Origin: a virus
Length of the DNA stretch: 64,000 bases
IMG/VR virus record: IMGVR_UViG_3300025121_000776
Location: 96,001 to 160,000 of that record
Direction: 5' to 3' (one strand)
The position numbers and the translations under genes were made by a program. Position 1 is the stretch's first letter; each line of letters starts with the position of its first letter. The notes beneath the pieces are model-generated. The model was not told the origin of the DNA. It saw nothing but the letters and a program-made list of their open reading frames with translations, and did not search any database. Shown here piece by piece: positions 43,677-64,000 of the stretch.

Positions 43677-43790
43677 AATAAAGTTTTTATGGTTTATAAA
43701 TGTATAAAGAATAAAAAGAATAAAAGGGGAAATTTTAGGTTTACCCCTTTTTTTAAAAAGTTTCTTTATATTCGCATAACCAATAAAAAA

Positions 43791-44357
43791 ATGTATATGC
43801 AAAATTCAGATTTATTCAACTTGATTAACAAATTCAACTTTAGTGGCGTTTCTTTTGTATCTTTAAAGAATTATCGTTCTGATAAAAGTGATAACACCGA
43901 AGTTGCCGATATTCTTATTAACGTAGGTATTTCTTACGAAAAATTAAAAGCTGATGACCTTGAAGTTTTACAAGCTACAAAAAGAAGTATTGGCTCATTT
44001 GTTACTGAAAATTTTGGAATAGCAATACTTGAACAAGCTATTGATGAAAAAATACAGTCAATTTTAAAACCAAACGAAAATCGTAGCAATGGGCAAAAAG
44101 ACGCTTTTGTTATTCTTAACAATGGAATGAAATATTGCCCAAACACAGACAGTTTAATTATTAATGGTTCAGTTGTAAGAAAAACTGTAATTGTAAAAGG
44201 CGAATTTAAAGAAGTAAAAAGTAAACCTTTGACTTTAGCAAAAAAACACCTTGACAAAGCACTTGACCTTAAACTTGCAAAATTAAGATATTACAAACTA
44301 AGCAACTTAGGTGCAATAAAAGTAAGCGGGGACACAATCGAAATAACAAAAAGATAA
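43791..44357 (+). CDS. Hypothetical early protein
   Basis: Start moved to the ATG after the promoter; followed by the hairpin AAAAGGGACTGAAAAGTTCCCTTTTT. Confidence 0.7.
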   Translation: MYMQNSDLFNLINKFNFSGVSFVSLKNYRSDKSDNTEVADILINVGISYEKLKADDLEVLQATKRSIGSFVTENFGIAILEQAIDEKIQSILKPNENRSNGQKDAFVILNNGMKYCPNTDSLIINGSVVRKTVIVKGEFKEVKSKPLTLAKKHLDKALDLKLAKLRYYKLSNLGAIKVSGDTIEITKR

Positions 44358-44719
44358 TAAAATAAAAAAGAAAAAGGGACTGAAAAGTTCCCTTTTTTGT
44401 TTATATATTGCTTTATAATAAACGTTCCTATAATAATAAAAGGTTTCCCTATCTTAATTTTTAAATGCTTTAAAACGCTTTAAAACGAGTTTCCCCTTTT
44501 CTCTCCCTTTTTCTTTATAACAACATTAGAAGTTAAACAATAAACAATAAACAAATGAAGAGTATGAAGAAATTATAAAGAAATTTATTTAAAAATAAAT
44601 TTCTCCCCCACTCAAAAGGTGGGGGCTAACTGAATTTATAAACTTTCCCTATGACACAAGATTCCCCCTTTTTCTCAATCTTTTCTTTATATGTTTATAA
44701 CCAATAAAAACATAAAACA

Positions 44720-46486
44720 ATGAATTATTTAAAAATTGTAATTAACGAAACGGCTTGTAACAGTCCAAAAGTATCAGACGATACTCATGTTTTTAATCAA
44801 ATAGTTGAAAAGAAAAAAACCATTGAAGAAGTTGAGGAATTTCTAAAAGACCGTTACGGCAAAGTAATAAGCAAAAAACACAGAGAAAAAAGAGGAGTTT
44901 TTGTTGATGATAAAAACGGACAAGCAAAAAGAGTGGGATTTCTTTTTTCTTTTTGGAACAAAGATTGGTCGCATAATTCAAAAAGTTGGTTTCAAACTGA
45001 TTGGATTGAAATAATGAAAGTTGAAGAACAAGTAGTATTAATATAAAAAGATAAGGGGATTTTCCCCTTTTTTTTATTTTGTTTCTTTATATGTTTATAA
45101 CTAAAATTAAAAGTCATGAAAAAAGTAACAAAAACTTTAAAAGAAAGAGGCGACATAAAACCCGCTACAACTTTAAAAAACGTCTTCAAGAAAGAAGCAA
45201 TTGTAAGTGCTAATGACGCATTTGAATTGGGATTAGCTTTACAAAGCTTATTAGACCACGAAACTGAGTTTTCAAACACAGGAGTTTCTGTAAGTAAAAT
45301 AACAGAAGCAATTGATTTTGTTAAAAGTAATATTCAGCAAGATATTTTTGCATAGTTTCCCCTTTTTTTTCTTTAATTTCTTTATATTATTATGATAATA
45401 ACAATTTGGTTTACATTATTTAAACTTTTGAAAGAAAACAAAAGGCTTTTAAAAGAAGACAAAAAGATTGACAGTATTGCTGTTGAATTGATTAAAAAAC
45501 ACAAAGAAGTAGAAACTGTTTAAAAGAAACAATTATGCAGACGAAAATTAGAGGCAGTACAATTTTAAGTGCTTAAAGTAAAAAAGCAAAAGAAATTTTA
45601 CAAAACAAATTTAAAAAATCTAATTATGCCGAAAAATAAAGGTTCGCCAAGATAACAAAATATCTTTATATGTTTATAACCAATAAAGTCAAATACAAAA
45701 TACAATTTAGACTTGAAAACCCCTCTCACAAAGGGGTTTTGCATTTCCCCTTTTCTTTGTAAATTTCTTTATATGTTTATAACCAATAAAACAAATCAAA
45801 ATGGCAAAAGACAAATTATCAAAAGGACAAAGAAATTTTGTAAACAAATTTATTAATTCTGATGGCAAACTTTCAGAAGAAAAAATGGTAAAAAGGAACA
45901 ATCGTTTTTCTGGCGAAGAAGCCGAATTAAATGAAGTTGCTGCAGAATGTTTTGACTTTGTAATGAAAGTTGAAGACGGTTTAAACAGAAGAAGTGAAGC
46001 TATTTTAAAAGCTATCCACCCCGACCTTAAACTTTCAAACGCAGTGCAAAAGTTTGATATGGCTCGTATGACTGTTTTAGCCTTTGATTCTGAAGCTTAC
46101 ATGACTTTATTAGATTAAAAGAAAGGGGAGTTTCCCCTTTTCTCTCCCTTTTTCTTTATATGTTTATATAACCAATAAAACCAAATCAAATGCCAAATCA
46201 AGTAGCTCAAATAATCAGACAACAACTTTATGCAGGTGGACGTATTAAAGTTTTCACTTGGGGTGCTAATGCTTGGAGGGCAGGAGAAAATTTTTTACAT
46301 TTTAGAGTTACAGGGAAGTTATTTCGTGGGGTTGTTAGAATAACTTTAAACTCAATGGATTTATACGATATAAAACTAATGAAAGTAAGCGGCGAAGTTG
46401 TAAAAGAAATAAATGGAATTTACAACGACCAACTTACTGATGTAATTGATAACGCAATTGAAAGAGTTCCCGAATATAAATTTTAA
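44720..46486 (+). CDS. Cassette ORFs 44720-45046, 45116-45355, 45801-46118, 46190-46486 (hypothetical)
   Basis: Each begins 20-40 nt after a cassette promoter. Confidence 0.7.
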
Positions 46487-46799
46487 AAACTGGGGGTTTC
46501 CCTTTTTTCTACAAATTTCTTTATATGTTTATAACCAAAAATTAAAAACCAATGATGATAATTTTATTCAGAGAAAGCAGAAGAGTATTAACTCTTAAAG
46601 AGTACAATGAAAGTCGCACAGTGTTAGGAGTTTTAAGCGGTAAAGAATACAGACGACAAAGGCGTAAAGATAAAAGAAAATAGTTTTTTCAATTGCATGT
46701 TTTCATTTTTTGATGTTAAAATTGGTTAAAGGGGAAAATGGACATTCCCCTTTTTCTTTTTTATTTCTTTATATGTTTATAACCAACAAACCAAAGATT

Positions 46800-46979
46800 A
46801 TGGCAAAGAAGAAAAAAAACAAAAAAGAAGTCTCCCTTGATGATTATATAAAAGCTAATCGTAGGGGTTCACGTGAAGCTGAATTAGAATTCGCAAATGG
46901 TTTCAGAGCCGTACACAAAACTCATAAAAGCAAAAAAACTTATGCAAGAAAAGGCAAACACAAAGAGGTTTTTGCATAG
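46800..46979 (+). CDS. Small basic protein with an ArfA/BrfA-like C-terminal motif
   Basis: 59 aa, ...RAVHKTHKSKKTYARKGKHKEVFA; start moved to ATG 46800. Confidence 0.55.
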   Translation: MAKKKKNKKEVSLDDYIKANRRGSREAELEFANGFRAVHKTHKSKKTYARKGKHKEVFA

Positions 46980-47037
46980 AGGAAGTCTCCCCCTTTTCTC
47001 AGAATATTTCTTTATATGTTTATAAACCAATAAAATT

Positions 47038-50000
47038 ATGGAAAAATCATCCAAAAAAAGCGAAAACAAATGCACTAATACAACATTAGTTTCTGGACTT
47101 GTTACGGTTTTAAAAACACCCATAACAGAAAGGTATTGTAAAGTTGGCGACATAGCAACATTAGATATGAAAAATAAACAAATTAGATGTGGCGGTGCTT
47201 GGTTTAATTTTGATGAACGTTGGACTGTTCAATCTTGCAACTACAAATTGTTATTAGATACTTTTAAACAATCCCCTTTTTTCTTTTAAAGTTTCTTTAT
47301 ATAATAAAAAATATTATGGCAGGACATTTTCCACTTAGTAAAATTGATGAACCTCGAATATTTAGATTGGTCGATAAAATCAAAAATTTAATTATTTCAA
47401 ATGGTTCAGTTATTAAAGACTTTGAAAAATTCAAAATTACAGTTGGAAAAAATTCTGTTTATGAAATAATGAAACTCTCAAAAGATTATGTTGAAAATCC
47501 TATAAAAGAATTTGCATTTAATGTTGGAAAATTTTCTCTTGAAAGTATTACTGATGAACATCCTTCGCTTACAAAAAATATTAGTCTTGAATGTCATTTT
47601 CTAATAACTGAAAAAACAGTTATTAAAAAAATTATTATAAAAGATATATTTTGGGTAGCTTAATTCCCCTTTTCTCTATAAGTTTCTTTATATGTTTGTA
47701 ACCAACAAATTAAAAATTATGAAAATTATATTACAATATACTTGCGTTGCTTATTATACCAATAATACTAAAAAGACTTTAATTTGTAAAGCTGACTTTG
47801 AAAATTTCAACTTATCATTAAACAACTTTAATGAAAAAGTTATTGATTGGAACAGACAAGGACAAAACATGAAACAAATACAAAGCAAAGTAACTCCAAT
47901 TTTGGGCTATGATTATTTCACAACTCCCGAACAACATATTGAAAATATGCGAATAACTAAAACTAAACAATATCCAATTTCAACAGCACCTAAAATTACT
48001 TGCCCCAACTGTAATTTTAAATTTTAACAATATTCCCCCTTTTCTCCCCAGATTTCTTTATAAAAACAAAACAAAAAAGATTATGACAATAGCAATTTAC
48101 ATAGTGATTTCAATAATATCTTTTTGTTTAGGATATTATTTCTGTAAAAAAAGATACAATGTAAAAGGACTTATTAGACTTGCAGATTGTCAAGCTGATT
48201 TTATTGCAGGGGATATAACAAGAGAAAGAGCTTTAGAAATAATAAATGAAATTGAAAAATAACATATTGACAGGAAAGATTTAGTTTATTGGTTTGAAGA
48301 AGGGGGCTTGATTCCCCCTTTTTCATTTTGTTTTCTTTATATTCATAATTCAATTAAATAAATAAAAGCGATGGATGAAATTATAAAAGAAGCACTTATT
48401 AATTATTATAAAAATACTGATAATATTGATAAGTATGGGCAATTAAACATTTTCTATATGCAAGCTTTTTATTTTATTAAGGATGAACTTTTGAGAAATA
48501 AAGTAATTGAGTTCATAAAAGAAGGAAAAAGTAAATTAGTAAAATTTCAAACTTATGGTGGTAGATTTGGAGTTTATGAAGCAATTGCTATAATTGACAA
48601 CAAACTTAATAGCGAGCTATCAATTGCTCTACGTTCAAATGAAACTTACAAAGAAAAAATGAGACATTGATAAACTTCCCCTTTTCTTTACAAATTTCTT
48701 TATATGTTTATAAATCAAAAAAGCTTAAAATGAAAACAATTATAATAAACTACAAAGATTTTGTTGAAAGCATGAATGACAACAAAAGAGTTGAGAAAGT
48801 TTTAACAGCTTTGCAGACTGCAAAAGTAGAGGAACAGAACCCAAACATGATTATTGTAAACTACTCAGACGAGGGCTACGCTTTGTTTAATGTTATAAAG
48901 ATAGAAAACGAAATGAGATATGTACAGTCAAATGGAACGGCTGCATAAACTCTCCCCCTTTTCTTTGGGGTTTTCTTTATATGTTTATAACCAATAAAAA
49001 ACTAAAGTCATGAATGAAGTATCAAATGAAAAATTTAAAATAGAATTTTATAGTTCAGAAGGTGACAGTCGTACATGGGATAACCTTACAAAAATGGTTT
49101 GTTGTCATGGCAAATACCGTTTAGGGGATAAGCATGATTATAATAGTAATGACTTTGATTCATGGGAAGATTTTAAAAAAGCTATTATTAAAAACGAAAA
49201 GGCTGTAATTATTAAACCGCTTTACATATACGACCATGGCGGTATAACTATTGCTACTTCTCCATTTTCTTGCAGATGGGATAGTGGACAAGTTGGGTTT
49301 GTTTTTGTGACAAGAGAAACAATGTTAAAAGAATATGGTATTAAAAGAATAACCAAAAAGTATATTGAACAAGCAACCAAAGTATTAGGTGGTGAAGTTG
49401 AAACATACAAACAAGAAGTTGAAGGTGACGTTTGGGGTTTTAATTCTGAAAATCTTGAAACTGGCGAAACTGATAGTTGCGGAGGATTTTATGGAAGTGA
49501 TTTTTGGGCAAATGGAATGACAGACCATATAAATGATGAAATAATTGAAGGTTTAAGAAGTGAATTAGAAGCTGAATTTGGAAAAGAGAAAAAATAAAGG
49601 AGGGGGAATTCCCCCTTTTCTCAGAATATTTCTTTATATAAACATAACCAATAAAAAACCAAAGTTATGAATATAGTAATAGTTGATAATTTTAAAACCG
49701 ATGTAATGTTCAGAAAAGATATTACAAAAGATTTCAAAGGTACAATATTTGCAGTATTTCCTCACGAAGTTGATAATTACAGAGGGGATATTATGACCTA
49801 TCAACACGTAGGACAGCATAGTTCTGGGGATTATCAAGTTTGTTTACAACAATCAAAACCAGCAACCGTAGAAGAAAGTGCAGACTTAAAACGTGAAATG
49901 GAAGGCTTAGGATATGATTTAAACATAGTTCGCAGACAGAATCGAGATAAATACTTAAAAGAGTACAAAAGGGTTAATAAGGCTTAAAAAGAGCTGAGGG

Positions 50001-51817
50001 GAATTTTCCCCTTTTTTTGATTTATTTCTTTATATAATTATAATCAACAAATAAAAATTATGGCTTATTATATTACAATTTACAAACAAAAAAAATGTGG
50101 TGATAAGTTTAAAGTTAAAGCAAACGTAAAATTTGTGAAACAAGTTGTTCGTAACCCCTTTAGTGAATACGGAAGGATTGCAACTGAAAACTTTATGAAA
50201 CTATTTTCAGCAAGTCTTAATGAACCTGTGAAACTTTCAAAAAAGACGATTGAAAAAGCAATTGAAAATTACTCAAAACAAGCAAGTGATTTTAGGTGCT
50301 ATAATTCAAAGTTTTTACCAATACTAAAAACAAGCAGTATTTTCAATTTTCTTAATCGAATAAAATACGATTATTACATTGTGGGAAATTAATTTCCCCT
50401 TTTTTTGATTTATTTCTTTATATAATAAAATAAGAAGCCATGATAAAAGTAACAGCTACAGGAACACAAGAGTTTGAGATGATTAATGCAAAACTTGATA
50501 AACTTCCTTTTTTAATTCGTGAACAGATTGAGAGTGCTGAGAAAGCCCCTACGCATGACGGAATTATTTGTAAGCTTAAAAGTTCTAAAATTAATGACCA
50601 AAACATTTGTCTACCAAAATCAGGCGTCCAACAAATTCTTGAAAGTGATAGAATAATAACAATCATAATTGATAATTATGCCTTTATTTTTAAAATTCAA
50701 AGATTTGAACAAAATATTTCTTTTATGTTTAATCAATAATTCTCCCCCTTTTTCTTTTTGGTTTCTTTATATGTTTATAAAACCAATAACCATGAAAAAT
50801 AATATCAAAAAAAACAGAATACTTTTTATTGAGGGTGCAAAGAAAATAATTGCAAATTTGGGTGCAAAAATTATAAGTTTACCTACTTTTGCATGTGAAA
50901 ATACAAAGTACTTATTAAAGACAAAAACAAATGTTTTAAACATTATTCTATATGAGGAAAATCATCAAGAATTTCTTTATTCAGTATTTTGCAGATTTGA
51001 AACCCCTTGCAAAGAAGCAAACAATCAACATTCGGGAAAGCATAATTTTCATCTTGCAAGTAAACTCCCTATACCCGAAATATTAAAAGAATTAGAAAAT
51101 CACTTAAAAAATGCAATTGAAGTTTAAGGGGAACTCTCCCCCTTTTTCTTTTTATTTTCTTTATATAAATAAAAATAAACGAATATGAGAAACATTTTTA
51201 ATACCATAGTAACAACCAAAAGACACAGAGAAATTGGTTATTGTGAATCTTCAGATTTTGGCAAAATTGAACTTATTGCTTTAGAATCAAGTGAAAAGGA
51301 ATTAATTGTTTCCTTTAATGATTATAAAGATAAAAAAGAGTTTATTGCTTTTGAAGGTCATGCTTACGCAAAAGTAAATAAAAGCTCTTATTTTGGTGGA
51401 ATGTCAAGAGAAGAAGAAGGAAGTTGGGCGAAAAAGCAAGGCAAGTTTTCAGAAAGAACTGCAATCAAATTACTTTTAGAATTAAGGAAACGATTTGAAA
51501 ACACGTTTTCAAATGTTAGTTCTGCAAAATATATTCTAATTGATAGAACTCTTTATGTTCAATATTGTAAACTCAAAGACCTTGCAATTACAGTTTGCGG
51601 AAACATGTTGTTTGCTCATTGGATAAGCATTAATATTGAATGTCATGAAGGTAAAGAAAATATAAAGCTTAATAAAAGCAATTTTGAAAAGATTGTTAAA
51701 GCACAATATGAAAGATGGAAACAGGGCAACCCCAAAACCAAAAGTATTGATGGTCATACTCACAGTTGTTTCTCAAAACCAACTAATGTAAAATGGGGTG
51801 AAAAGTTTGTTGCTTAA
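47038..51817 (+). CDS. Cassette ORFs 47038-47289, 47316-47663, 47719-48027, 48083-48262, 48371-48670, 48730-48948, 49010-49597, 49667-49987, 50060-50392, 50440-50739, 50792-51127, 51185-51817 (hypothetical)
   Basis: One ORF per promoter element; several track starts corrected to the ATG downstream of the element. Confidence 0.7.
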
Positions 51818-51876
51818 TTTTCCCCTTTTCTCCCTACTTTTCTTTATATCTTCATAACCAATAAATTTAAAAAGCC

Positions 51877-52213
51877 ATGAAAACAATAAACAAAATTATT
51901 ACCAAAGTTGATACAAGTCGAGGTGCACCAATAATTCCGTCATGCGTAGGGGCTTTCTCAGCACTCTCAATCTGTTCACGAATTTTTATCAAGTTTTGCA
52001 TTAATCATCTCAAACTCTTGTGTTCCTGTGGGCAGGAGTAATGTTGGAACTGAGAAAGACGCAAAAGGCAAAAGAATTTTTGATTGTGCTGTACCAATGA
52101 GTTCAGACGGTGCATACGATTCTAAAGGAGCATATTTTGGAATTGGAAGACAATTAAGGGTTAAATATACAAAAGATTTAACTTTTATAAAGTTTTATAG
52201 AAGGGGAGAATAA
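51877..52213 (+). pseudogene. Cassette gene split by a 97-bp antisense insertion
   Basis: Removing 51933-52029 restores ...SRGAP-ATG-GRSNVG... as one 79-aa ORF; as written it is frameshifted. Confidence 0.8.
51933..52029 (-). repeat. Inverted duplication of 50458-50565 lacking 11 internal nt (50503-50513)
   Basis: Exact reverse-complement match in two blocks (52 and 45 nt), verified base by base at the junctions. Confidence 0.92.
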
Positions 52214-52271
52214 TTCCCCTTTTTTTAAAACTTTTTCTTTATATCTTTATAACCAATAAAAATCTAAAACC

Positions 52272-55200
52272 ATGAGTACAGAATGGAAATTTGTAATAAT
52301 ATTAGGGTTCATAATAACCATTTTGTGTATAGTTTTCGGAGGTTTTCAAGGTATTATTGACGCTGTAAAAGATATAATTGCTTTTGTAATGTTTTGGGGG
52401 TTTATTGCTCTTATTATTGCAGGTCTTTACTTTTTACTAAAAAGATTTGAAAAAAACAAAAAAGAATAATTAATGTATAATTGCTATAACGAAGCTGTTA
52501 TTTATCTTAGAGATAAATTAGGCACAAAAGAAGTTCATCATGGTTTTGTTACAAAAGAAGTAAAACAACATAGAATTGATAAAACTTATAAAGATGAAAA
52601 GATTAAGCCAAATTCAGATGAAGCCATAATTGACTGTTTATTAAAACAATATTATTTTGGGATTGACGCAAAGAAAGAATTGTTTTATAAATTACAAAGC
52701 TTGGGTGTAAAAACTTTAATAAATTAAAAATAACATTATGGAAATGTATAACTTAGAACGTGAAAGGTTTGAAACTCCCGAAGAAAGAAAAATAAGACTT
52801 GGACTTGTAAAGCACAAACAAACTTGTGAAAAAAACCGAAGAAAAAGAAAAGCAAAGAGAAAAAAATAATTCCCCCTTTTTTTCTCAAATTTCTTTATAT
52901 GTTTATATAACCAATAAAAACAAAAAAAATGGAACACAAAATAAAAAAACCAAAAGGAACTTTTTATTCTGATTATGTAATTGAAAACGGAAAGTGTTAT
53001 GCAATTTTTGAAACTGTTGATAACAGGGTGCATAAAACACTTGTTTGCAATACTAAAAAGAAAAATTCAGATTGGAGGACTTTTAAAATAAAAGAAACAA
53101 AAAAATTGTTAAAAATAAATCTTTTTGACAGAGAAAAACTTAAGTTAGAATCAAATCAGTATATTCCTTATGAAGGAAAACGGTTGCCAAGTGGAATGCC
53201 AGCGTGTGCAACATATTACTACTTTGTAAATTCAGAGGGTAAAACAGTTGATAAAGTAACTTTAAAACCTTACAAAGGCAAACAAATGAACCGTTATGCT
53301 ATGAAGTCGAAAACAGAAGCAAAAGCATATTTAGAAGTTATAAACAAGGGGGTTTAACTCTCCCCCTTTTTTATTTTTGTTTCTTTATATAATTGTAACC
53401 AAAAAATAAAATTATGGCAAATACAAAAAAATGGGATAAACATTTACAACCTATCATTGATGATTTTAATGAGGGTGGCAATGAAGCTTTAGATGGCGAT
53501 GATGTTGATTTCTTGGTTAAAATCATTAAACTTAAACTTAATTTTATGCAAGGCAATTTAACACAAAAGGAATACGACACAAAACTTGCTCGTTTAAAAT
53601 GGAAATACAGTTAAATAAGGGGGTTTCCCCTTTTTTAAAACTTTTTCTTTATATGTTTATAACCAATAAAAACAAATGTCTTATGAATTTCAATAACAAA
53701 CATTTTAAAACTCGCACTCTTAAAGTAGAAGTTGGGGACAATACAAGAACTTACACAATTGCAGACGAAAGTTTGTTGCAAGAAATTAATAGTGTAACCA
53801 CTTCAGAAGCTCAATTAAAAGGAACAAATATTGATGAACAAATTTATTTTTATGTTGATAAAGGACAATTAGAGCTTCCAGCAAAAGAAATTTGCGAAAA
53901 GCATTTAGACGTTCCAATGAAATTTGTTGAAGAAATATTTTAAACTATTATAAAAACCATGAAAAAATTCAGTATAAGACTAAAAGAAATGTATGCAGAA
54001 GCAGAGGCAAGACTTTCTACTCTTATTGATGAAAATGGAACTGAAAGTAAACATTCCAGCAATAAAAGTCTTAAAATCAAAAAAGATGATTTAAAATATA
54101 ATTTATCGGGAGGTCGTTATTTAACTGAAATTAAAAAAGTAAGTAAATTCACTGACGAAATTGAATTAGTTGATAATGGCGGATATACTTATAATTGTTC
54201 AGTGATGGATTCTGACAATTTCTTCGAGGTAGTTGATTATTTATTTGAAACTTATTAACTCACCCCTTTTTTTTTAAAAGTTCTTTATATAACCAGGTAT
54301 TGGAGACAAAATCAGAACCAAACGGAGTTTTCCTGGTAAAGTTTAATTATAGACTGGATGTAAAAAAAGGTATAATAAAAATATTTAAAGATTCGGTTTT
54401 TTCATGGTTTATATTGGTTAATAAAGGGGAGCTGGTTACTCCCCTTCTTCTTTCTCCCCCTTTTCTCCCCAGATTTCTTTATATGTTTATAAACAAAAAA
54501 TCATGCAACCATTACAAACAAGTCAAGAAATTGTAAGCACTTTTAGTCAATTGTCAAAAAGAGAAACCAAAGATGCTTTTATATTTCATTTAATTGGTAG
54601 TCCTGTAACATTCAGATATGTTAAAAAAGATTTTACTTTACAAACTATTACTTTTGGGCAAATAGTATGTAAACAAACTGTTTGCAAACCTTTAAGCTTT
54701 CAAGACTTTTTGCTTGTGGCACATGAAACATTTAATATAGTTATAAAAAGAAATTTTGGCGATAACTAACAATGAGCAAAATAAAAGATAAATATAATAA
54801 AAACAAAAACGCAAAGGTCGGGGAAACTTGCACCTGCCCAAGTTGCAACACTTCTTTTGTAAAAGAAAGTTATCAGCAAGTTTTCTGTAAAAGCAAAGGG
54901 GGTACAATTTGCAAAGATAAATACTGGAATACCGTAACACCAAGTAAAAGAAATAATACAACAAGAATAAGCCCAGCCAATAAAGCTTTTAAAGAAAGTG
55001 ATAGGGGTAAAGAGATTATAAACCAAAAATTGTGGGGTATGAGTGCCCCAAATATAGTTGGTGGTTCGGGGGTAATTTCGGGTATAACAAGTGAAGGCTA
55101 TAGAATAATGGACGGCACAGCTTACGATGAATTTGATGACGCAATTTATGATGTTTAATTCTCCCCCTTTTTTTTATTCAGTTTCTTTATACAATAAAAA

Positions 55201-55943
55201 AACAAAACAACATGAAAAAGTTTTTTAAAAATTTACTTGCCAATTTACTTGATTGGCAGTTTATCCCCAAAGTAGGGGACAAAGTAAAAGTTGCGGTTGG
55301 ATTTTGCTCTTATGAAAATGAAGGGATTGTATCAAGTGTGTATAAAGATAAACAAGGGGGCTATTGTTGGATTGACCAATTTAGCCCTAAAGGGAAATAT
55401 ATAAGAAGTTTTACTGCTTCATTTAGCTATTGTGTGTTTAAGTTTCTTTAATTCCCCCTTTTTTCTCAAACTTTCTTTATATATTCATAATCAAAAAAAC
55501 AATTTAATATGATAATAACAATTGATACACATTATTGTTCAAGAGAAGAACTACAAGAACTGAAAGATTACTTAAGTAATAACTCTTGGGACTTCAAAAC
55601 AAATGAAGTAAAAGAAGAAAAAGAAGTACTTCATGTATTGGGCGAAAATTCAATTAATGGAATTAAAATAAAAGAAAGAATTTTTCAAGAAGAATTATTT
55701 GAGTACAAAATAATTGACAGAAAAGAGTTTATTGATGAATTGATTCGTTGGATTGGAGAAGCAAAAAGTACTGATAAAGTTCTAATGAAGCAAGATTTGG
55801 AATTGCTTATGAATACAACTGATGACTTTATGTTTAGCTCTATTTCAACTAATGAGTATGTAGGAAAAGAAGATTCCAATTTTGATGAATTATGTGAGGA
55901 ATTATTAAAGTTAAATAAAGAGACAAAAAAGGGGAAAAAATAA
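52272..55943 (+). CDS. Cassette ORFs 52272-52469 (2 TM), 52473-52727, 52738-52869 (basic), 52929-53357, 53414-53614, 53683-53943, 53959-54258, 54503-54769, 54772-55158 (Cys-rich), 55212-55451, 55509-55943
   Basis: Co-oriented ORFs following promoter elements. Confidence 0.68.
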
Positions 55944-56021
55944 TTCCCCCCCTTTTTCTCAGCTTTTTCTTTATATGTTTATAACCAGAATAAGTTTTTT
56001 TCGTATAAAAAAATAAATGCT

Positions 56022-56930
56022 ATGACAAAAAAAAATCCTTTAGATGATTTTTATAAACTCAATTCATTAATTTCTCCAAACGGAATAAATGGATTTATGG
56101 GCGGTTTATTTGCTCATATGGAAAAAAGCGAAAGACGGCAAAGAAATGCTTTTGCAGGTATTACGTCCAATGAAGAAGGACTTTTTGGGGTTGAAGGTAA
56201 AATTCCTTTTGAATATGTTAATATTGAATTTAAAAACAAAATATACGAATGCCTTTTAAATTGCAATAAAACTCACGAATTTGATGTTTATGACAAGGAT
56301 TGTAATTTACTTTTCCAAGCTGATAAATTTGATAACTTAAAAGAGGGAATGTTCGCTGTAAGAATTGGCGAAAGAAAAAATAATGATTATGATTATGCTA
56401 TTTACAACGGCTCAAAAAGAGTTTCTGACTTTAATTTTAGAGTTGGGGGTTTAAGCTCTGGATTTGAAGGGCAATTTTGCGAAATATTATACAGACATCC
56501 AACACAAGAAAAATATTTATCTACACACGTTGTAATAAACAAAGAGGGCGAAATTATACTTAAAGCTGAGGGAAGTTATTCAGATTATATTTCTATTCAC
56601 AAAAACATTGCTTTTAATGGCAAAAAGGTTTTTAACCTTTTGACAAGAGAATTAATTTGTGAACAAACATACAGTTCAGATTCAACCATTAAAATAAAAG
56701 ATGAAGTTTTTGTAAAAGTAGGCGATAACGCTGTTTACAAAATAAATAAATATTCTGGCGAATTTGAAATTTTCGGTACTCTCCCCGAACCTAAGAAAGA
56801 AGTTGTTTATACTCCACCAGTTCCAAAAGAAAAAGTGGTTGTTCTCCCCAAACAACAAAGAAATGAAATTTGTCGTTGTGGGAGCAATAAGAAAGTTAAA
56901 CATTGTAATTGCAAAAATAATGGAGGATAA
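56022..56930 (+). CDS. Protein with C-terminal SEC-C metal-binding motif
   Basis: RNEICRCGSNKKVKHC, compare SecA RNDPCPCGSGKKYKxC. Confidence 0.7.
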   Translation: MTKKNPLDDFYKLNSLISPNGINGFMGGLFAHMEKSERRQRNAFAGITSNEEGLFGVEGKIPFEYVNIEFKNKIYECLLNCNKTHEFDVYDKDCNLLFQADKFDNLKEGMFAVRIGERKNNDYDYAIYNGSKRVSDFNFRVGGLSSGFEGQFCEILYRHPTQEKYLSTHVVINKEGEIILKAEGSYSDYISIHKNIAFNGKKVFNLLTRELICEQTYSSDSTIKIKDEVFVKVGDNAVYKINKYSGEFEIFGTLPEPKKEVVYTPPVPKEKVVVLPKQQRNEICRCGSNKKVKHCNCKNNGG

Positions 56931-57863
56931 CAATATACAAAACAACGAAGTCTCCCCCGAAAAGAAAAAAGGAATGACCATTGGGATTATTGGAGATGGT
57001 GGACTTATTGGAGCTAAGCACGCTTTAGCTATGGCTCAAAAAGATATTGGCACTCTTGTTAAAACTGAAATTCCCGAAATAGTATCTAAACTTGCTTTAA
57101 AAATGGCAGACAAAGGTGTCATTATCATTGTTGGAGCAACCGATACTGAACCTTCTTATAAAATTGAAAATGGCGTTGCAAGTGTTTTTGATGGCAAAGT
57201 TGTTACAGATTCAGAGGGCAAAAGAATTGTTTTAGATGATTCCAAATATGATAAACAATTGCCTTTAAGTCTTTTTGAAAGAGACTCTCCCTCATTAGTT
57301 TCAAAAGCTGAGCTTTTAAATGAAATGATTCCCTCGATGGAAATGTTTGATGGCACACCAAATAAATTAAGTTTAATAAGAAATCTTAAGCTCTCCCCCG
57401 AACAAATAGATTACTTTATGTTTGCACCACCTCAAAGGTTGGAGGGGGAAAAACATGATGATTATAAAAGACGACAAATGTTAAATAAATTATTAATTAA
57501 ATATAGGGGTTTATATTAATTCCCCCCTTTTTAAAAAAGTTTCTTTATATAAACATGAAAGAATTTTTAAGAAAATGGATTGAAGCTCAACTTGTAACTT
57601 TTAAAGGATGTGAACATCTTTTTTTAAAAACTATAGAGAAAGCTAATTACGGAAAATTTGCAAGTAAAGACTTTACGATAAAAACACGAATTACTTTGCA
57701 AAACAAAGACCATGATTTAATTAGGTTTATTGTTCCGTGTTTTTATACACTTACTGAAATTAAAAATGCTTTAAAAAATGGATACGAACTGTATTGGGAT
57801 TTTAAAGGCAGAAATTCAGTAAGCAATTCTGAAATAACATTAAAGAAAATAAAAACTAAGTAA
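56920..57863 (+). CDS. Hypothetical ORFs 56920-57519 and 57555-57863
   Basis: Start of the first moved to ATG 56920 (MEDNN). Confidence 0.65.
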
Positions 57864-57906
57864 TTCCCCCTTTTTAAATATAATTTCTTTATATAAACAA
57901 AAAGCC

Positions 57907-58191
57907 ATGAAAGCAATAGTAAAAGTCAAAAAAGGAAGTGTATATAGCAATTTCAATGGATTAACTTTTGAAGTTGAAGAAATTAATTCCACTTTTGTTC
58001 GTTTAGATATTAATGGAATTTCTACTGATTTTTTATATACCGAAGTAATTATGTAGATTATTCAAAAAGAATATCAAAAAGCTTTTGATAATTATAATTT
58101 CAATGGAGATAGTACTGTTATTAGACTACAAACTTATGCTACAAAAAACACTATTTTTTTAGACAAACCTGAATATAATTGTCCTGCATAA
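57907..58191 (+). pseudogene. Cassette ORF interrupted by an in-frame TAG (58054-58056)
   Basis: 49 sense codons, TAG, then 44 more sense codons in the same frame to TAA, filling the cassette exactly. Confidence 0.65.
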
Positions 58192-58244
58192 TTCCCCCTT
58201 TTTCTCATAAATTTCTTTATATCAATGAATCAAAAATTACAATT

Positions 58245-60951
58245 ATGCAAATTATAACAAGAGATGAAGACGGAGTAATTATTATGACATGTTCAACTGA
58301 AATGGCAAAAGTCCTTTTTTTATCCAGAGTAAGAAAATCAGTAACCCAATTCGTTAATAACAACAAAGAGGTTAAAGCAGTTTTTTCAAAAACTTTTACC
58401 TTTAACGACTTAGCAACTTTTTCAAAAGATTCCCGCTTGATAAATATTTTAGCAATGAATTATATTTTTGGATTTACAGCTGTAAGTGTAAAAGAAAACA
58501 TAGGTGGATTTGATAGCCAAACAAATTTGCTTAATAGCTGATTTCCCCTTTTCTCAAAAAGTTTCTTTATATTAATATAACCAAAAACAAAGGCAATGTC
58601 AAAAGTATTCCCAAATTCGATAATTAAATATGATGAATTACCCACAATAAACGGGGAATTAATTGAATCTATTTTCGCTTATAAATGGAAAGAAAACTAT
58701 TATAAAGCAGGAGATTGTCCAACAGGAGAAAAACCAGACTTTTTTCTTTGTCAATCATATTTTAGATGTCACACCCCCCATTATAGCAGAAGAGTAAGAA
58801 CATTACCCGAAGTTTTTCAAAAACTTCTGTTAAACGCAGATGGAACTTATAAAGGTCGTTATTTATCATATAGGACAAGATGTTCGGGAAATGGGGGATT
58901 TGTTGATGAATCTATATCTTTAAATGGCGATGGTAAACATGTCGCTTATTACAGAGGAAGTAATGATGAAATGGGAATACTGGAAAAATCAGAAATAGCA
59001 CAATTAATGATTTTTACTCTTAACAAAAAGTACAAATGCGAAGAAGTCGGAGATTATGAATTTACTCCAAATCCCTGTACGCATTTAAGAAATGAAGGTG
59101 GTTTGTTTTATCCTGATGTAGCTTGTAGTGGGTGGCGTTGGATGCATGGAATGCCCTATGTTTCCAATAATTATCCAAAAAGAGAAAACATAAGAGTTTT
59201 TAATGAATACTTAAATGCTCACATGTACTTGCAAAAAGTTAATTCTGTTGAAGTGGGGGACGAAGATTTATTAACTGTTGACTTCCCTTTTCAAGACGAT
59301 AAAAGAGGAGATTTATTTTGTAATCCATCACGTTGGAATGATACAAGAAATAACGAATTAATTCGTTATAAAATATTACACAAAAAACGTGAAAAAAATG
59401 TTTTTGAAGTTGGTGCTTGCTATAATGGTGAAGTGCAATTTAAAAAAGAAATGTATGGAGATTCATTTTATAAAATAGTAAGCATTATTTTCATAGACTA
59501 AACTCTCCCCCTTTTTTCTTTCAGTTTCTTTATATGTTTATAAATCAATAAAATTTTTCAATTATGGGCGGATTCACTCAAATAAAGCTAAAAGATGTTT
59601 CTATTCAGAACATCGAAAAACAAAATGCAATTTTGGATATTCACAAAGTACCAAAAAAATATCGTTTTAAATCTTTAGAAACAGTACAAATAATCGAGTA
59701 TGAATATTTTAAAAGAGGGCTTGGTACTTTTCATGAAAGTCAATTCCCCAAAGACAAAATAAAATCTTTAGCAGATTTTAAAAAGTATTGGAATCCAAAA
59801 GCAATAGGAGAAATATTTTGTGCTTATTCTGGAACATTGCAATTTGATTGTTATTTTGGCAGAACTTCAAAAAGTGCTATGCGAAAAATTGGCAAATACC
59901 TTGCTGAAAATATTAATGAAATAAGAGAAGTTGACGGTTCATTTTCAACCTTTTTAGAAAGAGGAACAACAAAAGCAGAAGTAAAAATAATTACAGAAAG
60001 CGGTTTGAAAATTTAACAAGGGGGATTTTCCCCCTTTTTTATTTCCTTTTCTTTATATCAATATAACCAAAAACTTATAATATGAGCTATACTCTCTTTT
60101 ATGACAAACAATTCATCAAAGTAAAAAAAGATGAAAAAACAGTATTTGTACCAATGATTTATGGCGGTTCAAACAATTGCTATGAAGTTGGTAAAGGTGG
60201 CAGAAGTGGCAGACGTGAAAGAGATTGGTTTGTTTTAAAGTTTATTCTTAATGGTAAAATTGCAGGTACACTCGAAGAAATGTTAGAAAAAGCAGAGGCT
60301 GAAAAAGTAGAACTAATTGAAAGAAATAAAGATGATGACAACAAATATTCAGATGACCGCTTTGGTTGGTTTTCTTCTCTTTCTTTGGGTGGTGGGTGCA
60401 AAGTCACTTTTGGACAATATAAAGGTGTTTTTATAACAGGGTGCAAAAAAGCTCTTACAGTAGAAGAATTAAAAGAGTTTGGCGTAGGTGTTTATATTTC
60501 AACATATCTTTACGAAGATAGCAAAAAAGAAGCTCTTAAGCAAGCAGGAAAAGAAATGAAATATGTTGAAATTAACTCTTCAGATGAACTTTTAACAAAA
60601 TTTGAAGAAACAGAAAAATACTATGAGGGCACAGGGGTTTCTGTTTACTTAAAAATTGATGCCTTTGAACATCAAATGAAAAGAATACGTAAAGCAAAAT
60701 TCCCCACAACAAAAAAAGTAAAACAACTTGTTGAAGTTGATAAATACTTTGTAATTAGAGTTGAACATTGTGGATATTTTCATAGTGCAATGAGAAATGG
60801 TTTTAGACACACTCCCTATTCAGATTCGGCAAAAGGTTTTATTACAGAAAAAGAAGCTGAGAAGTATTTAAAGAAATTTAAACAAAGAAATTCAAGAATA
60901 GCAAGTATTGAACTTGTGAATGAAAAAAATCGAATATTAACTTTGGTTTAA
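58245..60951 (+). CDS. Cassette ORFs 58245-58541, 58596-59501, 59564-60016, 60082-60951 (hypothetical)
   Basis: One ORF per promoter element. Confidence 0.7.
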
Positions 60952-61018
60952 AGGGGACAACTCTCCCCCTTTTTTAATTCCTTTTCTTTATAGTTACATA
61001 ACCAAAAAAACAAATAAA

Positions 61019-61786
61019 ATGAATTTACTAAAATTAGGCACAGGAAACGCAAAGTTAAAAAATGATATTGCTATAGTGGACCTCCCAGCTGGTTTTACGT
61101 GTCCTTATTCTAAAGACTGCGGGGATAAGGTGGACCCAGTGACTGGCAAATTAATTAAAAATCCAAAAGCAAAATTTCGTTGTTTCGCTGCAACCAGTGA
61201 GCTAATTTCCGCAGCTGCAAGACGTAAAAGGTGGCACAATTTTAATCTAATTAAAGAATGCAAAAGCTCAAAAGAAATTGCAGATTTAATTATAAATTCA
61301 CTTAATGCAAACAAATTCACAAAAGCAGCTCCAAAGGTTCGCATTCATTCAAGCGGTGACTTTTTTAATCAGAAATATTTTAATGCTTGGTTGCTTGTTG
61401 CAAATGCAATGCCCGAAAAAACGTTTTATGCTTATACAAAGAGTTTAAAATTTTGGGTTGCACAATTGAATAATATACCCGCAAACTTTCATCTTATCGC
61501 TTCTAAAGGGGGTAAAAATGATAGTTTAATCGAAAAACACAATCTTAAAAACGTAGAAATAGTTTTTTCACTTAATGAAGCAATTGAAAAGGGCTTAGAA
61601 ATTGACCACGATGATAGTCATTGCTATAATAAAGATGTAAAAAAGTTTGCCCTACTTTTACATGGGACCCAGCCAAAAAACAGCTTAGCCTCCGTAGCCA
61701 TTCAAAAATTAAGAAAAGAAGGAATTATGGGATACCAGAGGGGCGTTGTCGGTGCTGGTAGAATTGAAAAAACAAAAGCAGCATAA
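61019..61786 (+). CDS. GP88-family protein (radical-SAM-like Cys motif)
   Basis: GNAKL...LPAGFTCPYSKDC...CFA, VRIHSSGDFF, FYAYTKS. Confidence 0.75.
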   Translation: MNLLKLGTGNAKLKNDIAIVDLPAGFTCPYSKDCGDKVDPVTGKLIKNPKAKFRCFAATSELISAAARRKRWHNFNLIKECKSSKEIADLIINSLNANKFTKAAPKVRIHSSGDFFNQKYFNAWLLVANAMPEKTFYAYTKSLKFWVAQLNNIPANFHLIASKGGKNDSLIEKHNLKNVEIVFSLNEAIEKGLEIDHDDSHCYNKDVKKFALLLHGTQPKNSLASVAIQKLRKEGIMGYQRGVVGAGRIEKTKAA

Positions 61787-61860
61787 AAATGAGTTGGGGG
61801 GATGAGGAAACTCTCCCCCTTTTTAAATAAAGTTTCTTTATATAAACAAACAATAAAATT

Positions 61861-63417
61861 ATGAATAATAGACTTAAAATCGGTGACGTTGTAAATTGGA
61901 AAGGCTCTTGGGGTACTGAACCCGAAGCAAAGGCTAAAGTTGAAAACATTGAAATCTGTGCTCAAAACAGCAAAGATGGAAAAGAAGTAAAATCAGTTGC
62001 ATGGGATACAATTACCAACGATAAAAGACGAGTAATTGTCACTCTTGATAATGGTCATTGGGCTTATGGAAATCAAATTTCTCCTATTAAATAAAAACAA
62101 TTATGAAAAAATCATTCAGAAAATTCAAAGAAGGAACAGAAGTGAAAACTACAGTTTTTATGTCAACCGAAGATATTGGAGGAGATGAAAATATTGAAGT
62201 TAGTACAACTGGAATTGTATTTGCTGAACCAAGTGACAGCGAAGAATTGGTTGGAGTAAATATTAACGGCTCACTTAATTATCTTCCCCAATTTGTTTTA
62301 GAGGTTTCCTCAGAAGAAAAATAAACAGAAAGAGAAACTCTCCCCCTTTTTTATAAAAGTTTCTTTATATAATTATAAAACTTCTTAAACAAAAATTCGT
62401 ATAACATAGTATTAATCTTTAAATTTAAAAACTTATGAAAAAATTAATTCTTTATATTTGTTTAATGATGATTTCGTTAAATATACTTTCACAAACTGAT
62501 TCAATAATTTTTGCATCTATAACAGGAAATTATTCAATTAAGTGTAAGATAATTAGAGTGGGAAGTGATAGAATATATTATAAATATTATAATAATTCTG
62601 ATACTTTAAAATATGGTATTGTAAAAAGTGGAACGGCATTTTTAAACACTATAACTGAATATAAAAGTGATAATATTTGGCATATAGGAGCATTTATTGA
62701 AAAAGAACAAAATACAATAATTGTAAACAATATTTTATCAGATAATGCAAAATATAATATTAAAACCGATACACTTCAAAGTATAATGCTAATAACATCT
62801 AAACTTGAAAATAAGTTGCAATGTATTCAATATAATCTTTTAAAATGCAATCAAACATATACCACAGGTGTTGAATGTATAATAGTTGGAATATTATTTA
62901 ACGTAATTGGAGGCATAGCTATGGTTTATGATGAATTGACGCCAGCTTATACATTAATGGGGACGGGTGGTATTTTAACAGTTATTGGGGGAATTACAAT
63001 AATAAGTAGTCACAAATATATTGGAGAAGCAGGAAGTTGTAAGTAAATGGTAATCTATCCCCCAGTCAAAACTAAGAGGACTGCAGAATGAAGTTATTAT
63101 TCAAATAGCTTGTTTTTTAGAGGGTAGTTGGGAAGGATAACTCTCCCCCTTTTCTTCTTAAGTTTCTTTATATAATCAAATAATAAATAATCAATATCAT
63201 GAAAAAATTAACATTCCAATTACAAGACTTAGACGGCGAAAGTATGGGATTACTTCAAACCGAAATGAGTTCCAGCATTATTCAAAAAGAGTGGACAGCC
63301 TACATTAATTCCGAAACCGATGATATGGGAATTGAAGAATTTATTACTCAAATGAAAGCTAAATATCCTAAGTTCATATTTAAACGTTTTTTTATTGACA
63401 AAGAGATTAGTGCATAA
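61861..63417 (+). CDS. Cassette ORFs 61861-62094, 62103-62324, 62435-63046 (signal peptide + C-terminal TM helices), 63199-63417
   Basis: Co-oriented ORFs following promoter elements. Confidence 0.65.
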
Positions 63418-63511
63418 ACAAACTTCTCCCCCAACTTCTCCCCAGCCAAAACTGTATTAAAATATATAGATTTGGCGGGGTTTGTTTGTTGTAACTATCT
63501 AAATATCAATG

Positions 63512-63586
63512 TACTACGGAGGGGATTCGAACCCCCACTAACTTCGGTGAAAGCGAAGTGGCTTATTCCAATTTGCCAACCGTAGT
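63512..63586 (-). tRNA. trnE: tRNA-Glu (TTC), no encoded CCA
   Basis: Reverse complement folds: ACTACGG/CCGTAGT acceptor, CTTCG-CTTTCAC-CGAAG anticodon arm, GGGGG-TTCGAAT-CCCCT T-arm. Confidence 0.9.
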
Positions 63587-63600
63587 ATGTAAAATGCAAA

Positions 63601-63627
63601 AAGGTGAGATACTTTTGTATCCCACCT
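63601..63627. terminator. Hairpin between the tRNAs
   Basis: AGGTGAGATAC-tttt-GTATCCCACCT. Confidence 0.55.
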
Positions 63628-63764
63628 CTTGGTTTAGCTCCGAATTAATTTTTACATAATCTTAGCAGGGACACAATTTCTCATGAACTCCTCGCTTTCC
63701 TCGATGTTAAAATTAACTCTCATTTCTTTTTATCTTTTTTTTGTAGTCGTAACTACTTGATTTG

Positions 63765-63839
63765 TAGCGGGGGTGAGACTCGAACTCACGTTGTTCGGAT
63801 TATGAGACCGAGCTGGAACCACCTCCAGACGACCCCGCA
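63765..63839 (-). tRNA. trnM: tRNA-Met (CAT), initiator-like, no encoded CCA
   Basis: TGCGGGG/CCCCGCT acceptor with 1:72 mismatch, TCGGT-CTCATAA-TCCGA anticodon arm, GTGAG-TTCGAGT-CTCAC T-arm. Confidence 0.85.
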
Positions 63840-64000
63840 ATATATTTTAAATAGTCAAATTTTTTTAAAAATCAAAAAACAGGGTAAAATTTTTAAAAGT
63901 TTGGTCTGGAAATTCTAAATTTTCGATGTAACTCTTAATGTCGCCACTGTTATTTTCTAACTTATACGCAAACTTATGACAAAAGTTTCAAAAAACCAAA

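What the first reader, a model, noticed from the sequence alone, without database searches (positions are those of the whole stretch)
43703..63420. 20-kb array of ~40 gene cassettes, each gated by one terminator/promoter element
Seen: CCCC-N14-TTCTTTATA plus an A-rich leader precedes almost every ORF and flips with gene orientation. In many copies an upstream GGGG arm pairs with the C-run so that CCCC-TTTT is also a terminator stem plus U-tract. That arm is often encoded by the last codons of the previous gene (RRGE*, NKGV*, KKGKK*, YRGLY*). The consensus does not match Bacteroidota sigma-A. Known: SPO1 host-takeover modules and T4-type promoter-early-stem-loop cassettes are analogous but differ in sequence. 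Inference: a phage-specific (possibly virion-packaged) polymerase promoter that insulates monocistronic early genes and serves as a shuffling site; a rich pool of unknown host-takeover or anti-defence genes.
Basis: partly seen in the sequence, partly recalled or inferred. Interest (0 to 1): 0.8.

Follow-up and report, generated by a model that had tools for sequence, protein, structure and literature searches.

The report
Terminator-promoter gene cassette array in phage
A giant uncultured phage of Bacteroidota-type bacteria packs some 60 small unknown genes into one block in which almost every gene has its own copy of a compact stop-terminator-promoter module; the promoter matches neither the host's standard type nor the phage's other promoter types, so it probably marks a separate, phage-controlled stage of gene expression.

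Summary
There are 52 copies in this phage record (42 in the window), over 33 kb (window 43,703 to the window end and 12.7 kb beyond).

The element ("class A") is TYCCCC-TTTT, a 12-nt spacer of fixed length and free sequence, then CTTTATAT, then an A-rich leader and ATG. The previous gene's stop codon usually abuts it. In 24 of 52 copies the C-run is the 3' arm of a hairpin followed by a T tract.

Three or four related huge-phage lineages carry homologous arrays with their own variants of both blocks and the same spacing.

It is best filed as a new variant of the PeSL terminator/promoter cassettes of T4-like phages. Unlike PeSLs, the promoter does not match the host sigma-A type.

The clade uses three other promoter types:
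- a Bacteroidota sigma-A type (class H);
- an ECF type, AAC-N16-CGTATA (class B), matched by a phage ECF sigma whose gene lies in the array behind a class A copy;
- a TATTTATA box (class C).

Complete relatives also encode an RpoD-like sigma and no detectable RNA polymerase. A virion polymerase is therefore not supported. Which factor reads class A remains open.

The same stretch was noted in an overlapping window, and similar sigma cascades were noted in other jumbo phages of this scan.

The parts
43703..64000 (+). Window part of the class A cassette array: 41 forward modules (stop codon, C-run/T-run block, 12-nt spacer, second block, A-rich leader, ATG). The array continues to genome 172,670, which is 12.7 kb beyond the window end.
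43703..43729 (-). Inverted class A copy at the left edge. It drives a minus-strand ORF (ATG at 43,676, ending at 43,452), divergent from the first forward copy.
43744..44357 (+). First forward module and its gene (188 aa from the ATG at 43,791). This is one of the few array genes conserved in both complete relatives, near the start of their arrays (55-58% identity).
45053..45091 (+). Example of dual use: a 7-bp G/C hairpin with a 3-nt loop and a T tract, whose 3' arm is the promoter's upstream block.
60018..60057 (+). Second example of a dual terminator/promoter (8-bp stem, 3-nt loop, T tract).
45360..45523 (+). Module whose ORF (43 aa, hydrophobic N-terminus) starts exactly 12 nt after the C of the second block. 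Candidate leaderless mRNA.
57523..57863 (+). Second module whose ATG lies exactly 12 nt after the C of the second block (102-aa ORF).
55949..56021 (+). Tandem promoters: a class A copy followed by a class B site (AAC at 55,983-55,985, 16 nt, CGTATAA at 56,002-56,008) in front of the 302-aa gene at 56,022.
62343..62434 (+). Second tandem class A plus class B promoter (CGTATAA at 62,398-62,404) in front of the 203-aa gene at 62,435.
44493..44660 (+). Class A copy with no ORF of 30 codons or more behind it. It is followed by a 7-codon ORF and a G/C hairpin. Possible small RNA or decayed cassette. No Rfam match.
45658..45745 (+). Degenerate copy: the second block and leader are kept, the C-run block is lost, no ORF follows, and a separate hairpin comes next. 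Probably a decayed cassette.
61019..61786 (+). One of the few array genes in the window with a family match (Pfam GP88, PF17338; function unknown).
63512..63990 (-). Minus-strand unit nested in the array: a class B promoter (CGTATAA at 63,968 down to 63,962, AAC 16 nt upstream) followed by two tRNA genes (63,839-63,765 and tRNA-Glu 63,586-63,512).

Best explanation
Each module is a compact transcription insulator plus start signal. The previous gene ends, often with its last codons forming the G-rich arm. A C-run and T tract close a short hairpin that acts as an intrinsic terminator in about half of the units. The same C-run/T-run, at a fixed 16-nt distance from the C of the second block, forms the upstream half of a two-block promoter of sigma-70-family geometry.

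Transcription probably starts 12 nt after that C. That places the second block at about -12 to -7 and the C-run at about -33 to -29. A leader of roughly 8-26 nt, A-rich and without a Shine-Dalgarno sequence (or no leader at all), follows.

The promoter ('class A') is a phage-specific class. It is most likely read by the host core RNA polymerase carrying a phage-encoded specificity factor, not by host sigma-A alone and not by a phage polymerase. The leading candidate is the RpoD-like sigma of this clade, which is transcribed from a host-type promoter and has an altered -35-reading helix.

Class A would then be the second tier of a cascade:
1. Host sigma-A reads class H promoters and makes the phage sigmas.
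2. Class A switches on the block of about 60 small genes, including the ECF sigma gene.
3. The ECF sigma reads class B (AAC-N16-CGTATA).
4. Class C (TATTTATA) drives virion genes.

Shown: the anatomy, the statistics, conservation in relatives, the four motif classes and the sigma genes. Inferred: promoter and terminator activity, the start site, the timing, and which factor reads class A.
For: - Rigid spacing with a free spacer sequence, and an invariant C-run even in the 28 copies without a hairpin. This argues that the C-run is a recognition element and not only a terminator arm.
- ATG lies at exactly C+12 in three real genes (two here, one in the complete relative) and otherwise at C+20 or more.
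- Homologous arrays occur in relatives with variant blocks at the same spacing: CCCAC, 58 copies; CCCTC, 45 copies; a lineage with CTTAAT as second block, 28 copies in 11.7 kb. In each of the three long records the copies sit in one co-oriented block of 33-40 kb.
- Class A is absent from class H geometry, and canonical TTGACA/TATAAT sites are not enriched.
- The ECF sigma gene follows a class A copy in all three phages.
- Class B is canonical for ECF sigmas: 19 of 20 intergenic CGTATA sites have AAC at 16-17 nt. The phage ECF sigma keeps RpoE K56, F175 and R176, as the published specificity code expects for A at -32 and T at -11 (PMC7776599).
- Tandem A plus B promoters argue for two different readers.
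- The RpoD-like sigma (279 aa) is present in both complete relatives behind TTG-N20-TAnnTTTG. A homologue lies on a 540-kb contig, the same size as the longest contig that carries this record's ECF sigma.
- Its region 2.4 is of the Bacteroidota type, but region 4.2 has N where true Bacteroidota RpoD has R.
- No RNA polymerase domains were found.
Against: - There are no RNA data. Promoter, terminator, start site and timing are all inferred.
- The RpoD-like sigma has the same -10-reading residues as host sigma-A, so one would expect it to prefer TAnnTTTG boxes rather than the class A second block.
- Its region 4.2 is identical in two phages whose C-runs differ at one position. No co-variation links it to class A.
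- RpoD-like sigmas occur in more than 589 viral contigs, whereas class A arrays were found in only a few lineages.
- ECF sigmas usually read the promoter in front of their own gene, and that promoter is class A.
- The RpoD-like sigma gene is not in this 57%-complete record.
- Very divergent polymerases (crAss- or phiKZ-type) can escape Pfam.
Confidence: 0.5

Rival explanations
1. Class A is a true immediate-early promoter read directly by the unmodified host sigma-A holoenzyme, as in T4-type PeSLs. Its odd consensus is only a phage 'dialect'.
For: - Dense arrays of small ORFan genes with private strong promoters are typically immediate-early in T4 and SPO1. PeSL promoters of some T4-like phages also deviate from the host consensus (PMC4122927).
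- A TA-n3-T hexamer starts 5 nt after the C of the second block in all three phages. In one relative it often reads as a full TAnnTTTG box.
Against: - The same genomes hold clear host-type promoters with TTG at 19-20 nt, and class A lacks that geometry.
- The best-conserved bases lie outside the putative TA-n3-T hexamer, whose last T is kept in only 65% of copies.
- A start site set by that hexamer would lie downstream of three ATGs at C+12.
- The C-run differs between related phages, although the DNA-reading residues of sigma-A are highly conserved within the phylum.
Confidence: 0.2
2. Class A is the autoregulated regulon of the phage ECF sigma. A host-type promoter one gene upstream primes sigma synthesis, and the sigma then amplifies itself and fires the whole array. 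Class B is read by the same sigma with different affinity, or by a host ECF sigma.
For: - The ECF sigma gene follows a class A copy in all three phages.
- ECF sigmas are usually autoregulated, a rule used for promoter discovery in PMC7776599.
- Classes A and B share the same layout: C, T tract, T-rich end of a 16-nt spacer, C.
- A class H promoter precedes the gene just upstream of the sigma gene in all three genomes.
Against: - The sigma keeps F175 and R176 of RpoE, and its recognition helix is invariant across the family. That fits the invariant AAC of class B, not a C-run that varies between phages.
- Tandem A plus B promoters in front of single genes would be redundant with one reader.
Confidence: 0.15
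3. Class A is read by a phage-encoded, possibly virion-delivered, non-canonical RNA polymerase or injected factor.
For: - The motif is lineage-specific and unlike the host consensus.
- It was seen several times per record only in these phage lineages, not in the cellular genomes listed.
- crAss-like phages of Bacteroidota do inject a polymerase that Pfam does not detect (10.1101/2020.03.07.982082).
Against: - No polymerase domain was found in the complete relatives.
- The two-block, 16/17-nt geometry is that of sigma-70-family holoenzymes.
- The clade invests in two sigma factors.
- Early promoters of the crAss-like virion polymerase showed no common motif.
Confidence: 0.08
4. The element is not mainly a promoter. 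It would be a recombination or cassette-capture site, or only a terminator with a conserved leader or RNA-processing signal.
For: - Another report of this scan describes an integron-like hairpin array 19 kb further on in the same genome.
- Cassette order differs between relatives.
Against: - The orientation is strictly tied to the downstream ORF.
- Half of the copies have no hairpin.
- The two blocks are at fixed spacing, like a promoter.
- No recombinase is associated with the array in the ORFs scanned.
Confidence: 0.05

Closest known systems
PeSL (promoter-early stem-loop) cassettes of T4-like myoviruses (Arbiol et al. 2010, PMC2839356; Comeau et al. 2014, PMC4122927)
   Same: - Both are small composite terminator/promoter motifs repeated in front of small, mostly ORFan genes in hyperplastic regions of large myoviruses.
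- The stem-loops are of the G-run, loop, C-run, T-run kind.
- Consensus variants are lineage-specific.
- Both are associated with gene-content plasticity.
   Different: - PeSL promoters are host sigma-70-like. This one matches neither TTGACA/TATAAT nor the Bacteroidota consensus.
- Here the terminator's 3' arm and T tract are themselves the promoter's upstream block at a fixed distance, not merely adjacent to it.
- There is no Shine-Dalgarno sequence.
- Density is far higher: 45-58 copies in one 33-40 kb block.
- Recombination at the element and mini-circles are not shown.
Sigma cascades of large phages (SPO1 gp28 then gp33/34; T4 early, MotA/AsiA middle, gp55 late)
   Same: Several promoter classes are wired so that a regulator made from one class switches on the next. 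A phage sigma gene sits among early-type small genes.
   Different: - The sigmas here are an RpoD paralogue and an ECF-type sigma.
- No gp55 homologue was detected with two PHROG families.
- The assignment of readers to classes is untested.
ECF sigma promoters (AAC in the -35, CGT in the -10, 16-17 nt spacer; e.g. SigW/RpoE types; PMC7776599, PMC9723704)
   Same: Class A has the same C-to-C 16-nt geometry and T-rich spacer ends as the genome's own ECF-type class B.
   Different: Class A has a C-run instead of AAC and CTT(T)AT instead of CGT.
Bacteroidota sigma-A promoters (-33 TTG, -7 TAnnTTTG; PMC9723704, PMC6847099)
   Same: The host signals fit Bacteroidota: the A-rich leaders lack a Shine-Dalgarno sequence, and class H promoters are present in the same genomes.
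   Different: Class A lacks both boxes at the required 19-20 nt spacing.

Membership tests
PeSL cassettes of T4-like phages | Repeated in hyperplastic regions in front of small non-essential or ORFan genes | tested here: met
   There are 52 copies before ORFs with a median length of about 108 aa. Among 30 array ORFs scanned (26 of them in the window), the only family matches were one Pfam family of unknown function, three PHROG families of unknown function and one HNH endonuclease.
PeSL cassettes of T4-like phages | Stem-loop terminator directly upstream of the promoter | tested here: inconclusive
   Present in 24 of 52 copies against 7.3 expected, and 48 terminator-like sites against 8.4. The other half have the C-run and T tract but no G arm.
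PeSL cassettes of T4-like phages | Promoter is a strong host sigma-70/sigma-A-type early promoter | tested here: not met
   TTGACA/TATAAT-like sites are not enriched (108 against 93.6 +/- 11). Class A lacks the TTG-N19/20-TAnnTTTG geometry that the genome's class H promoters show.
PeSL cassettes of T4-like phages | Indels and replacements between close relatives have their breakpoints in the elements; mini-circles form | not testable with these tools
Only gene-order shuffling between relatives about 55% identical was seen.
ECF sigma-dependent promoters | AAC-type -35 and CGT-type -10 separated by 16-17 nt | tested here: not met
   The geometry is met, but both motifs differ. The genome's class B meets all three criteria.
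Bacteroidota sigma-A promoters | -33 TTG and -7 TAnnTTTG with a 19-20 nt spacer | tested here: not met
   The consensus of the 52 copies has neither box at that spacing. Compare class H.
Intrinsic (factor-independent) terminators | G/C-rich hairpin immediately followed by a T tract | tested here: met
   Met in about half of the modules, with hairpin energies of -6 to -18 kcal/mol and 4-9 T. Activity was not tested.
N4-type virion-polymerase hairpin promoters | The promoter is an extruded DNA hairpin, and a giant virion polymerase gene is present | tested here: not met
   Half of the copies cannot form the hairpin. No T7-like polymerase domain was found.

The most novel reading that the evidence does not exclude
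A clade of huge Bacteroidota phages uses its own copy of the host's primary sigma factor, changed in the -35-reading helix, to run a private promoter class. The upstream half of that promoter is physically the same DNA as the previous gene's terminator, so about 50 genes are each switched on and insulated by one 45-nt module. This would be a previously undescribed 'sigma-swap' tier between host-type early and ECF-type middle transcription.
Probability: 0.3. Interest if true: 0.7.

Novelty: new variant of a known kind. Interest (0 to 1): 0.6.

Why it matters
If the modules work as inferred, they give a ready-made transcription map for about 60 genes of unknown function in an uncultured giant phage. 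That block is the most likely home of host-takeover and counter-defence genes.

They also define a compact, portable terminator-plus-promoter part for Bacteroidota, a phylum with unusual promoters and few genetic tools.

The four promoter classes, together with two phage sigma factors, make a sigma cascade directly testable in vitro with host core polymerase, without culturing the phage.

Finally, the findings extend the PeSL idea, cassette shuffling through repeated regulatory modules, from T4-like coliphages and vibriophages to huge phages of another phylum.

Tried and rejected
- DNA search of the array against cultured phages found nothing. The helicase has only distant hits, 27% identity or less, so there is no cultured relative.
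- The crAss-like phi14:2 model was rejected. Its early transcripts have no common motif, and its middle promoters are host-like.
- The exact motif elsewhere in IMG/VR gave only six single chance hits. A looser pattern found multi-copy records only for the two relatives.
- The same pattern in 185,000 species genomes gave single hits only, apart from two contigs of one river metagenome bin that look like phage contigs.
- The single-protein search for the ECF sigma in viral contigs failed. It worked with an alignment.
- A candidate third sigma in the complete relative turned out to be an HNH endonuclease.
- An 881-aa ORF there has only sub-threshold sigma-like matches.
- gp55-type late sigma families phrog_234 and phrog_12791 were not found, so I could not assign the promoter classes to sigma factors by elimination.
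- The 290-aa relatives of the RpoD-like sigma are not ordinary Bacteroidota RpoD. The best identity to 300 sampled genomes is 46%, and no organism names could be obtained for them. Many viral contigs carry RpoD-like sigmas of this type, so they may be phage-borne.
- Repeats do not extend beyond the 60-90 nt module, so there is no sign of recent cassette duplication.
- Rfam finds nothing for the ORF-less units.

Full report
**What the window is.** The window is bases 96,001-160,000 of a 186,855-bp IMG/VR virus record. The record is 29.6% G+C and CheckV rates it 57% complete. PHROG matches point to a large myovirus with auxiliary RNA-repair genes: a baseplate wedge, an SbcC-like nuclease, a helicase, an RNA ligase domain, a CCA-adding enzyme and NAMPT. 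No cultured phage is close.

**The observation.**
Of these, 42 lie between 43,703 and 63,172.
- In the whole record I count 52 copies, at genome 139,703-172,670. Fifty are forward and two inverted, one at each edge.
- The consensus is T-Y-C-C-C-C, four to six T, about seven free positions, TTTCTTTATAT, then in many copies a (G/A)TTTATAACCAA-like stretch, and an A-rich leader.
- Four C and four T are each kept in 46-52 of 52 copies. The distance between the blocks never changes, although the spacer sequence is free.
- An ATG ORF of at least 30 codons follows in 49 of 52 copies. One copy uses TTG. One drives only a 7-codon ORF plus a hairpin, and one (inverted, right edge) has no ORF.
- The upstream gene's stop codon ends 0-3 nt before the block in the commonest arrangement, and within 25 nt in 37 of 43 units.

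**Terminator half.** With RNAfold, 24 of 52 copies put at least three of the four C into a hairpin of -4 kcal/mol or better that is followed by the T tract. Shuffled upstream sequence gives 7.3. The generic scanner finds 48 terminator-like sites against 8.4 +/- 3.1. The other 28 copies keep the C-run and T tract without a G arm. Together with the fixed spacing, this means the C-run is selected for something other than the hairpin. I read it as the upstream promoter element, which the phage repeatedly co-opts as a terminator arm by placing G-rich codons at the end of the previous gene.

**Start site.** In the three long records, the distance from the C of the second block to the ATG is either exactly 12 nt or at least 20 nt. 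Three substantial ORFs sit at 12 nt: 43 and 102 aa here, and 148 aa in the complete relative. This suggests initiation at C+12, giving leaderless mRNAs in those three cases. The second block would then lie at -12 to -7 and the C-run at about -33 to -29, which is sigma-70-family geometry. This is inference; there are no RNA data.

**Relatives.**
- The array contains an ECF-type sigma gene (206 aa; genome 165,382-166,002, beyond the window) directly behind a class A copy.
- Its homologues (43-63% identity) lie on contigs of up to 540 kb.
- An alignment-based search fetched two long records, of 291 kb (91% complete) and 372 kb (100% complete).
- Both have the same kind of array, and in both the sigma gene follows a copy.
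- Their C-runs read CCCTC and CCCAC instead of CCCC(C), with the spacing identical.
- A fourth lineage has CCCCTC.
- A fifth replaces the second block by CTTAAT at the same 16-nt distance, with 28 copies in 11.7 kb.
- In each long record the 45-58 copies sit in one co-oriented block of 33-40 kb and nowhere else.
- Of the 64 array genes here, 21 and 13 have homologues in the two other arrays. The distal part around the sigma gene is syntenic. The proximal part is scrambled.
- Within this genome, repeats do not extend beyond the module.

**Other promoter classes.** Upstream regions outside the array are enriched for two other words.
- *Class B:* AAC, 16 nt, CGTATA. Nineteen of 20 intergenic CGTATA sites carry AAC at 16 or 17 nt, and the consensus is the same in all three phages. 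This is the textbook ECF layout (PMC7776599, PMC9723704).
- *Class C:* TATTTATA, 12-33 nt before the ATGs of structural and other genes. It occurs in 27 of 205 upstream regions against 2.6 expected.
- *Class H:* TAnnTTTG with TTG sharply at 19-20 nt, the Bacteroidota sigma-A rule (PMC9723704).

Together with the A-rich leaders that lack a Shine-Dalgarno sequence (PMC6847099), class H supports a Bacteroidota host.

Two window units carry class A and class B in tandem, which explains their long leaders. A minus-strand class B site inside the array precedes two tRNA genes.

**Who reads class A?**
- *No phage polymerase detected.* No multisubunit or T7-like polymerase domain was found in any of the three records. 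Very divergent enzymes could be missed.
- *A second sigma.* The complete relatives encode a 279-aa sigma with regions 1.2 to 4. A homologue sits on a 540-kb contig, the same size as the longest contig with this record's ECF sigma. It is not in the present fragment.
- *Its features.* Region 2.4 is the Bacteroidota signature. Identity to real Bacteroidota RpoD is only 41-46%. The first residue of the -35-reading motif is N instead of R. In both relatives its operon follows a perfect class H promoter.
- *The ECF sigma.* It keeps RpoE K56, F175 and R176, and has an invariant recognition helix. That fits the invariant class B. In all three genomes a class H promoter precedes the gene just upstream of it.

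I therefore favour this order: host sigma-A makes the phage sigmas; a phage factor, most likely the RpoD paralogue, fires class A; the ECF sigma made there fires class B.

The case is weak in three places:
- The paralogue's -10-reading residues equal the host's.
- Its region 4.2 does not co-vary with the C-run.
- Such paralogues are far more widespread than class A: more than 589 viral contigs against a few lineages.

Direct reading by host sigma-A, and autoregulation by the ECF sigma, remain live rivals. gp55-type sigmas were not detected, so class C has no assigned reader here either.

**Comparison with what is known.** The closest described system is the PeSL cassette of T4-like phages. PeSLs are terminator stem-loops of the G-run/C-run/T-run kind, next to strong early promoters. 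They are repeated in hyperplastic regions and implicated in modular shuffling (PMC2839356, PMC4122927). This element works like a PeSL but fails one defining feature, the host-type promoter. It also fuses the two functions on the same bases. I found no paper describing it.

**Earlier notes of this scan.** The same stretch was noted from an overlapping window. The ECF sigma with two promoter classes, the TATTTATA box, and similar cascades and RpoD paralogues in other jumbo phages were also noted. I re-derived the first three independently here.

**Verdict.** The feature is real, conserved and unusually dense. It is a new variant of a known kind.

Noticed in passing
window 63,512-63,990 (minus strand): Two tRNA genes lie inside the forward cassette array, on the opposite strand, behind an ECF-type class B promoter. 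They are tRNA-Glu at 63,512-63,586 and a weaker Rfam tRNA hit at 63,765-63,839 that ARAGORN did not call.
   Followed up: partly
genome 172,300-173,600 (beyond the window; L018:12,300-13,600): A 1.3-kb stretch without ORFs at the right end of the array. It holds the inverted class A copy, two class B sites and many G-run/C-run hairpins. It may encode small RNAs or be a regulatory or origin region. No Rfam match.
   Followed up: partly
genome 164,490-166,549 (L018:4,490-6,549): A gene trio conserved in all three phages: an unknown 265-aa gene behind a host-type promoter, the ECF sigma, and an unknown 160-aa gene. The flanking genes have no family match and could be the sigma's partner or anti-sigma.
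   Followed up: partly
relatives: L224:982-2322 (minus) and L223:879-2214: The RpoD-like 279-aa sigma is co-transcribed with a conserved 162-aa gene of unknown function. The pair is 86% identical (sigma) between phages whose ECF sigmas are only about 50-55% identical to this record's.
   Followed up: partly
L238:11,231-13,876 (372-kb relative): An 881-aa ORF with sub-threshold matches to sigma-70 region 2 (19.7 bits) and to the Rsd/AlgQ anti-sigma family (16.8 bits). These may be chance matches or a large sigma-binding protein.
   Followed up: no
L173 and L159 (contigs JBEGTS010000005.1 and JBEGTS010000015.1 of a 'Pseudomonadota' river MAG): These contigs start with near-identical class-A-like elements (CCCTC variant). 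They are probably huge-phage contigs mis-binned into a bacterial MAG.
   Followed up: no
genome 160,000-172,300 (L018:1-12,300): The distal part of the array holds larger genes with recognisable domains behind class A copies: ParB-like, PAPS-reductase-like, a zinc-ribbon protein, a KaiC/AAA ATPase, a UVR-domain protein and an HNH endonuclease.
   Followed up: partly
window 1-43,700 and genome-wide: TATTTATA boxes lie 12-33 nt before many ATGs outside the array and are almost absent inside it. No gp55-type sigma was detected with two PHROG families, even in the 100%-complete relative.
   Followed up: partly
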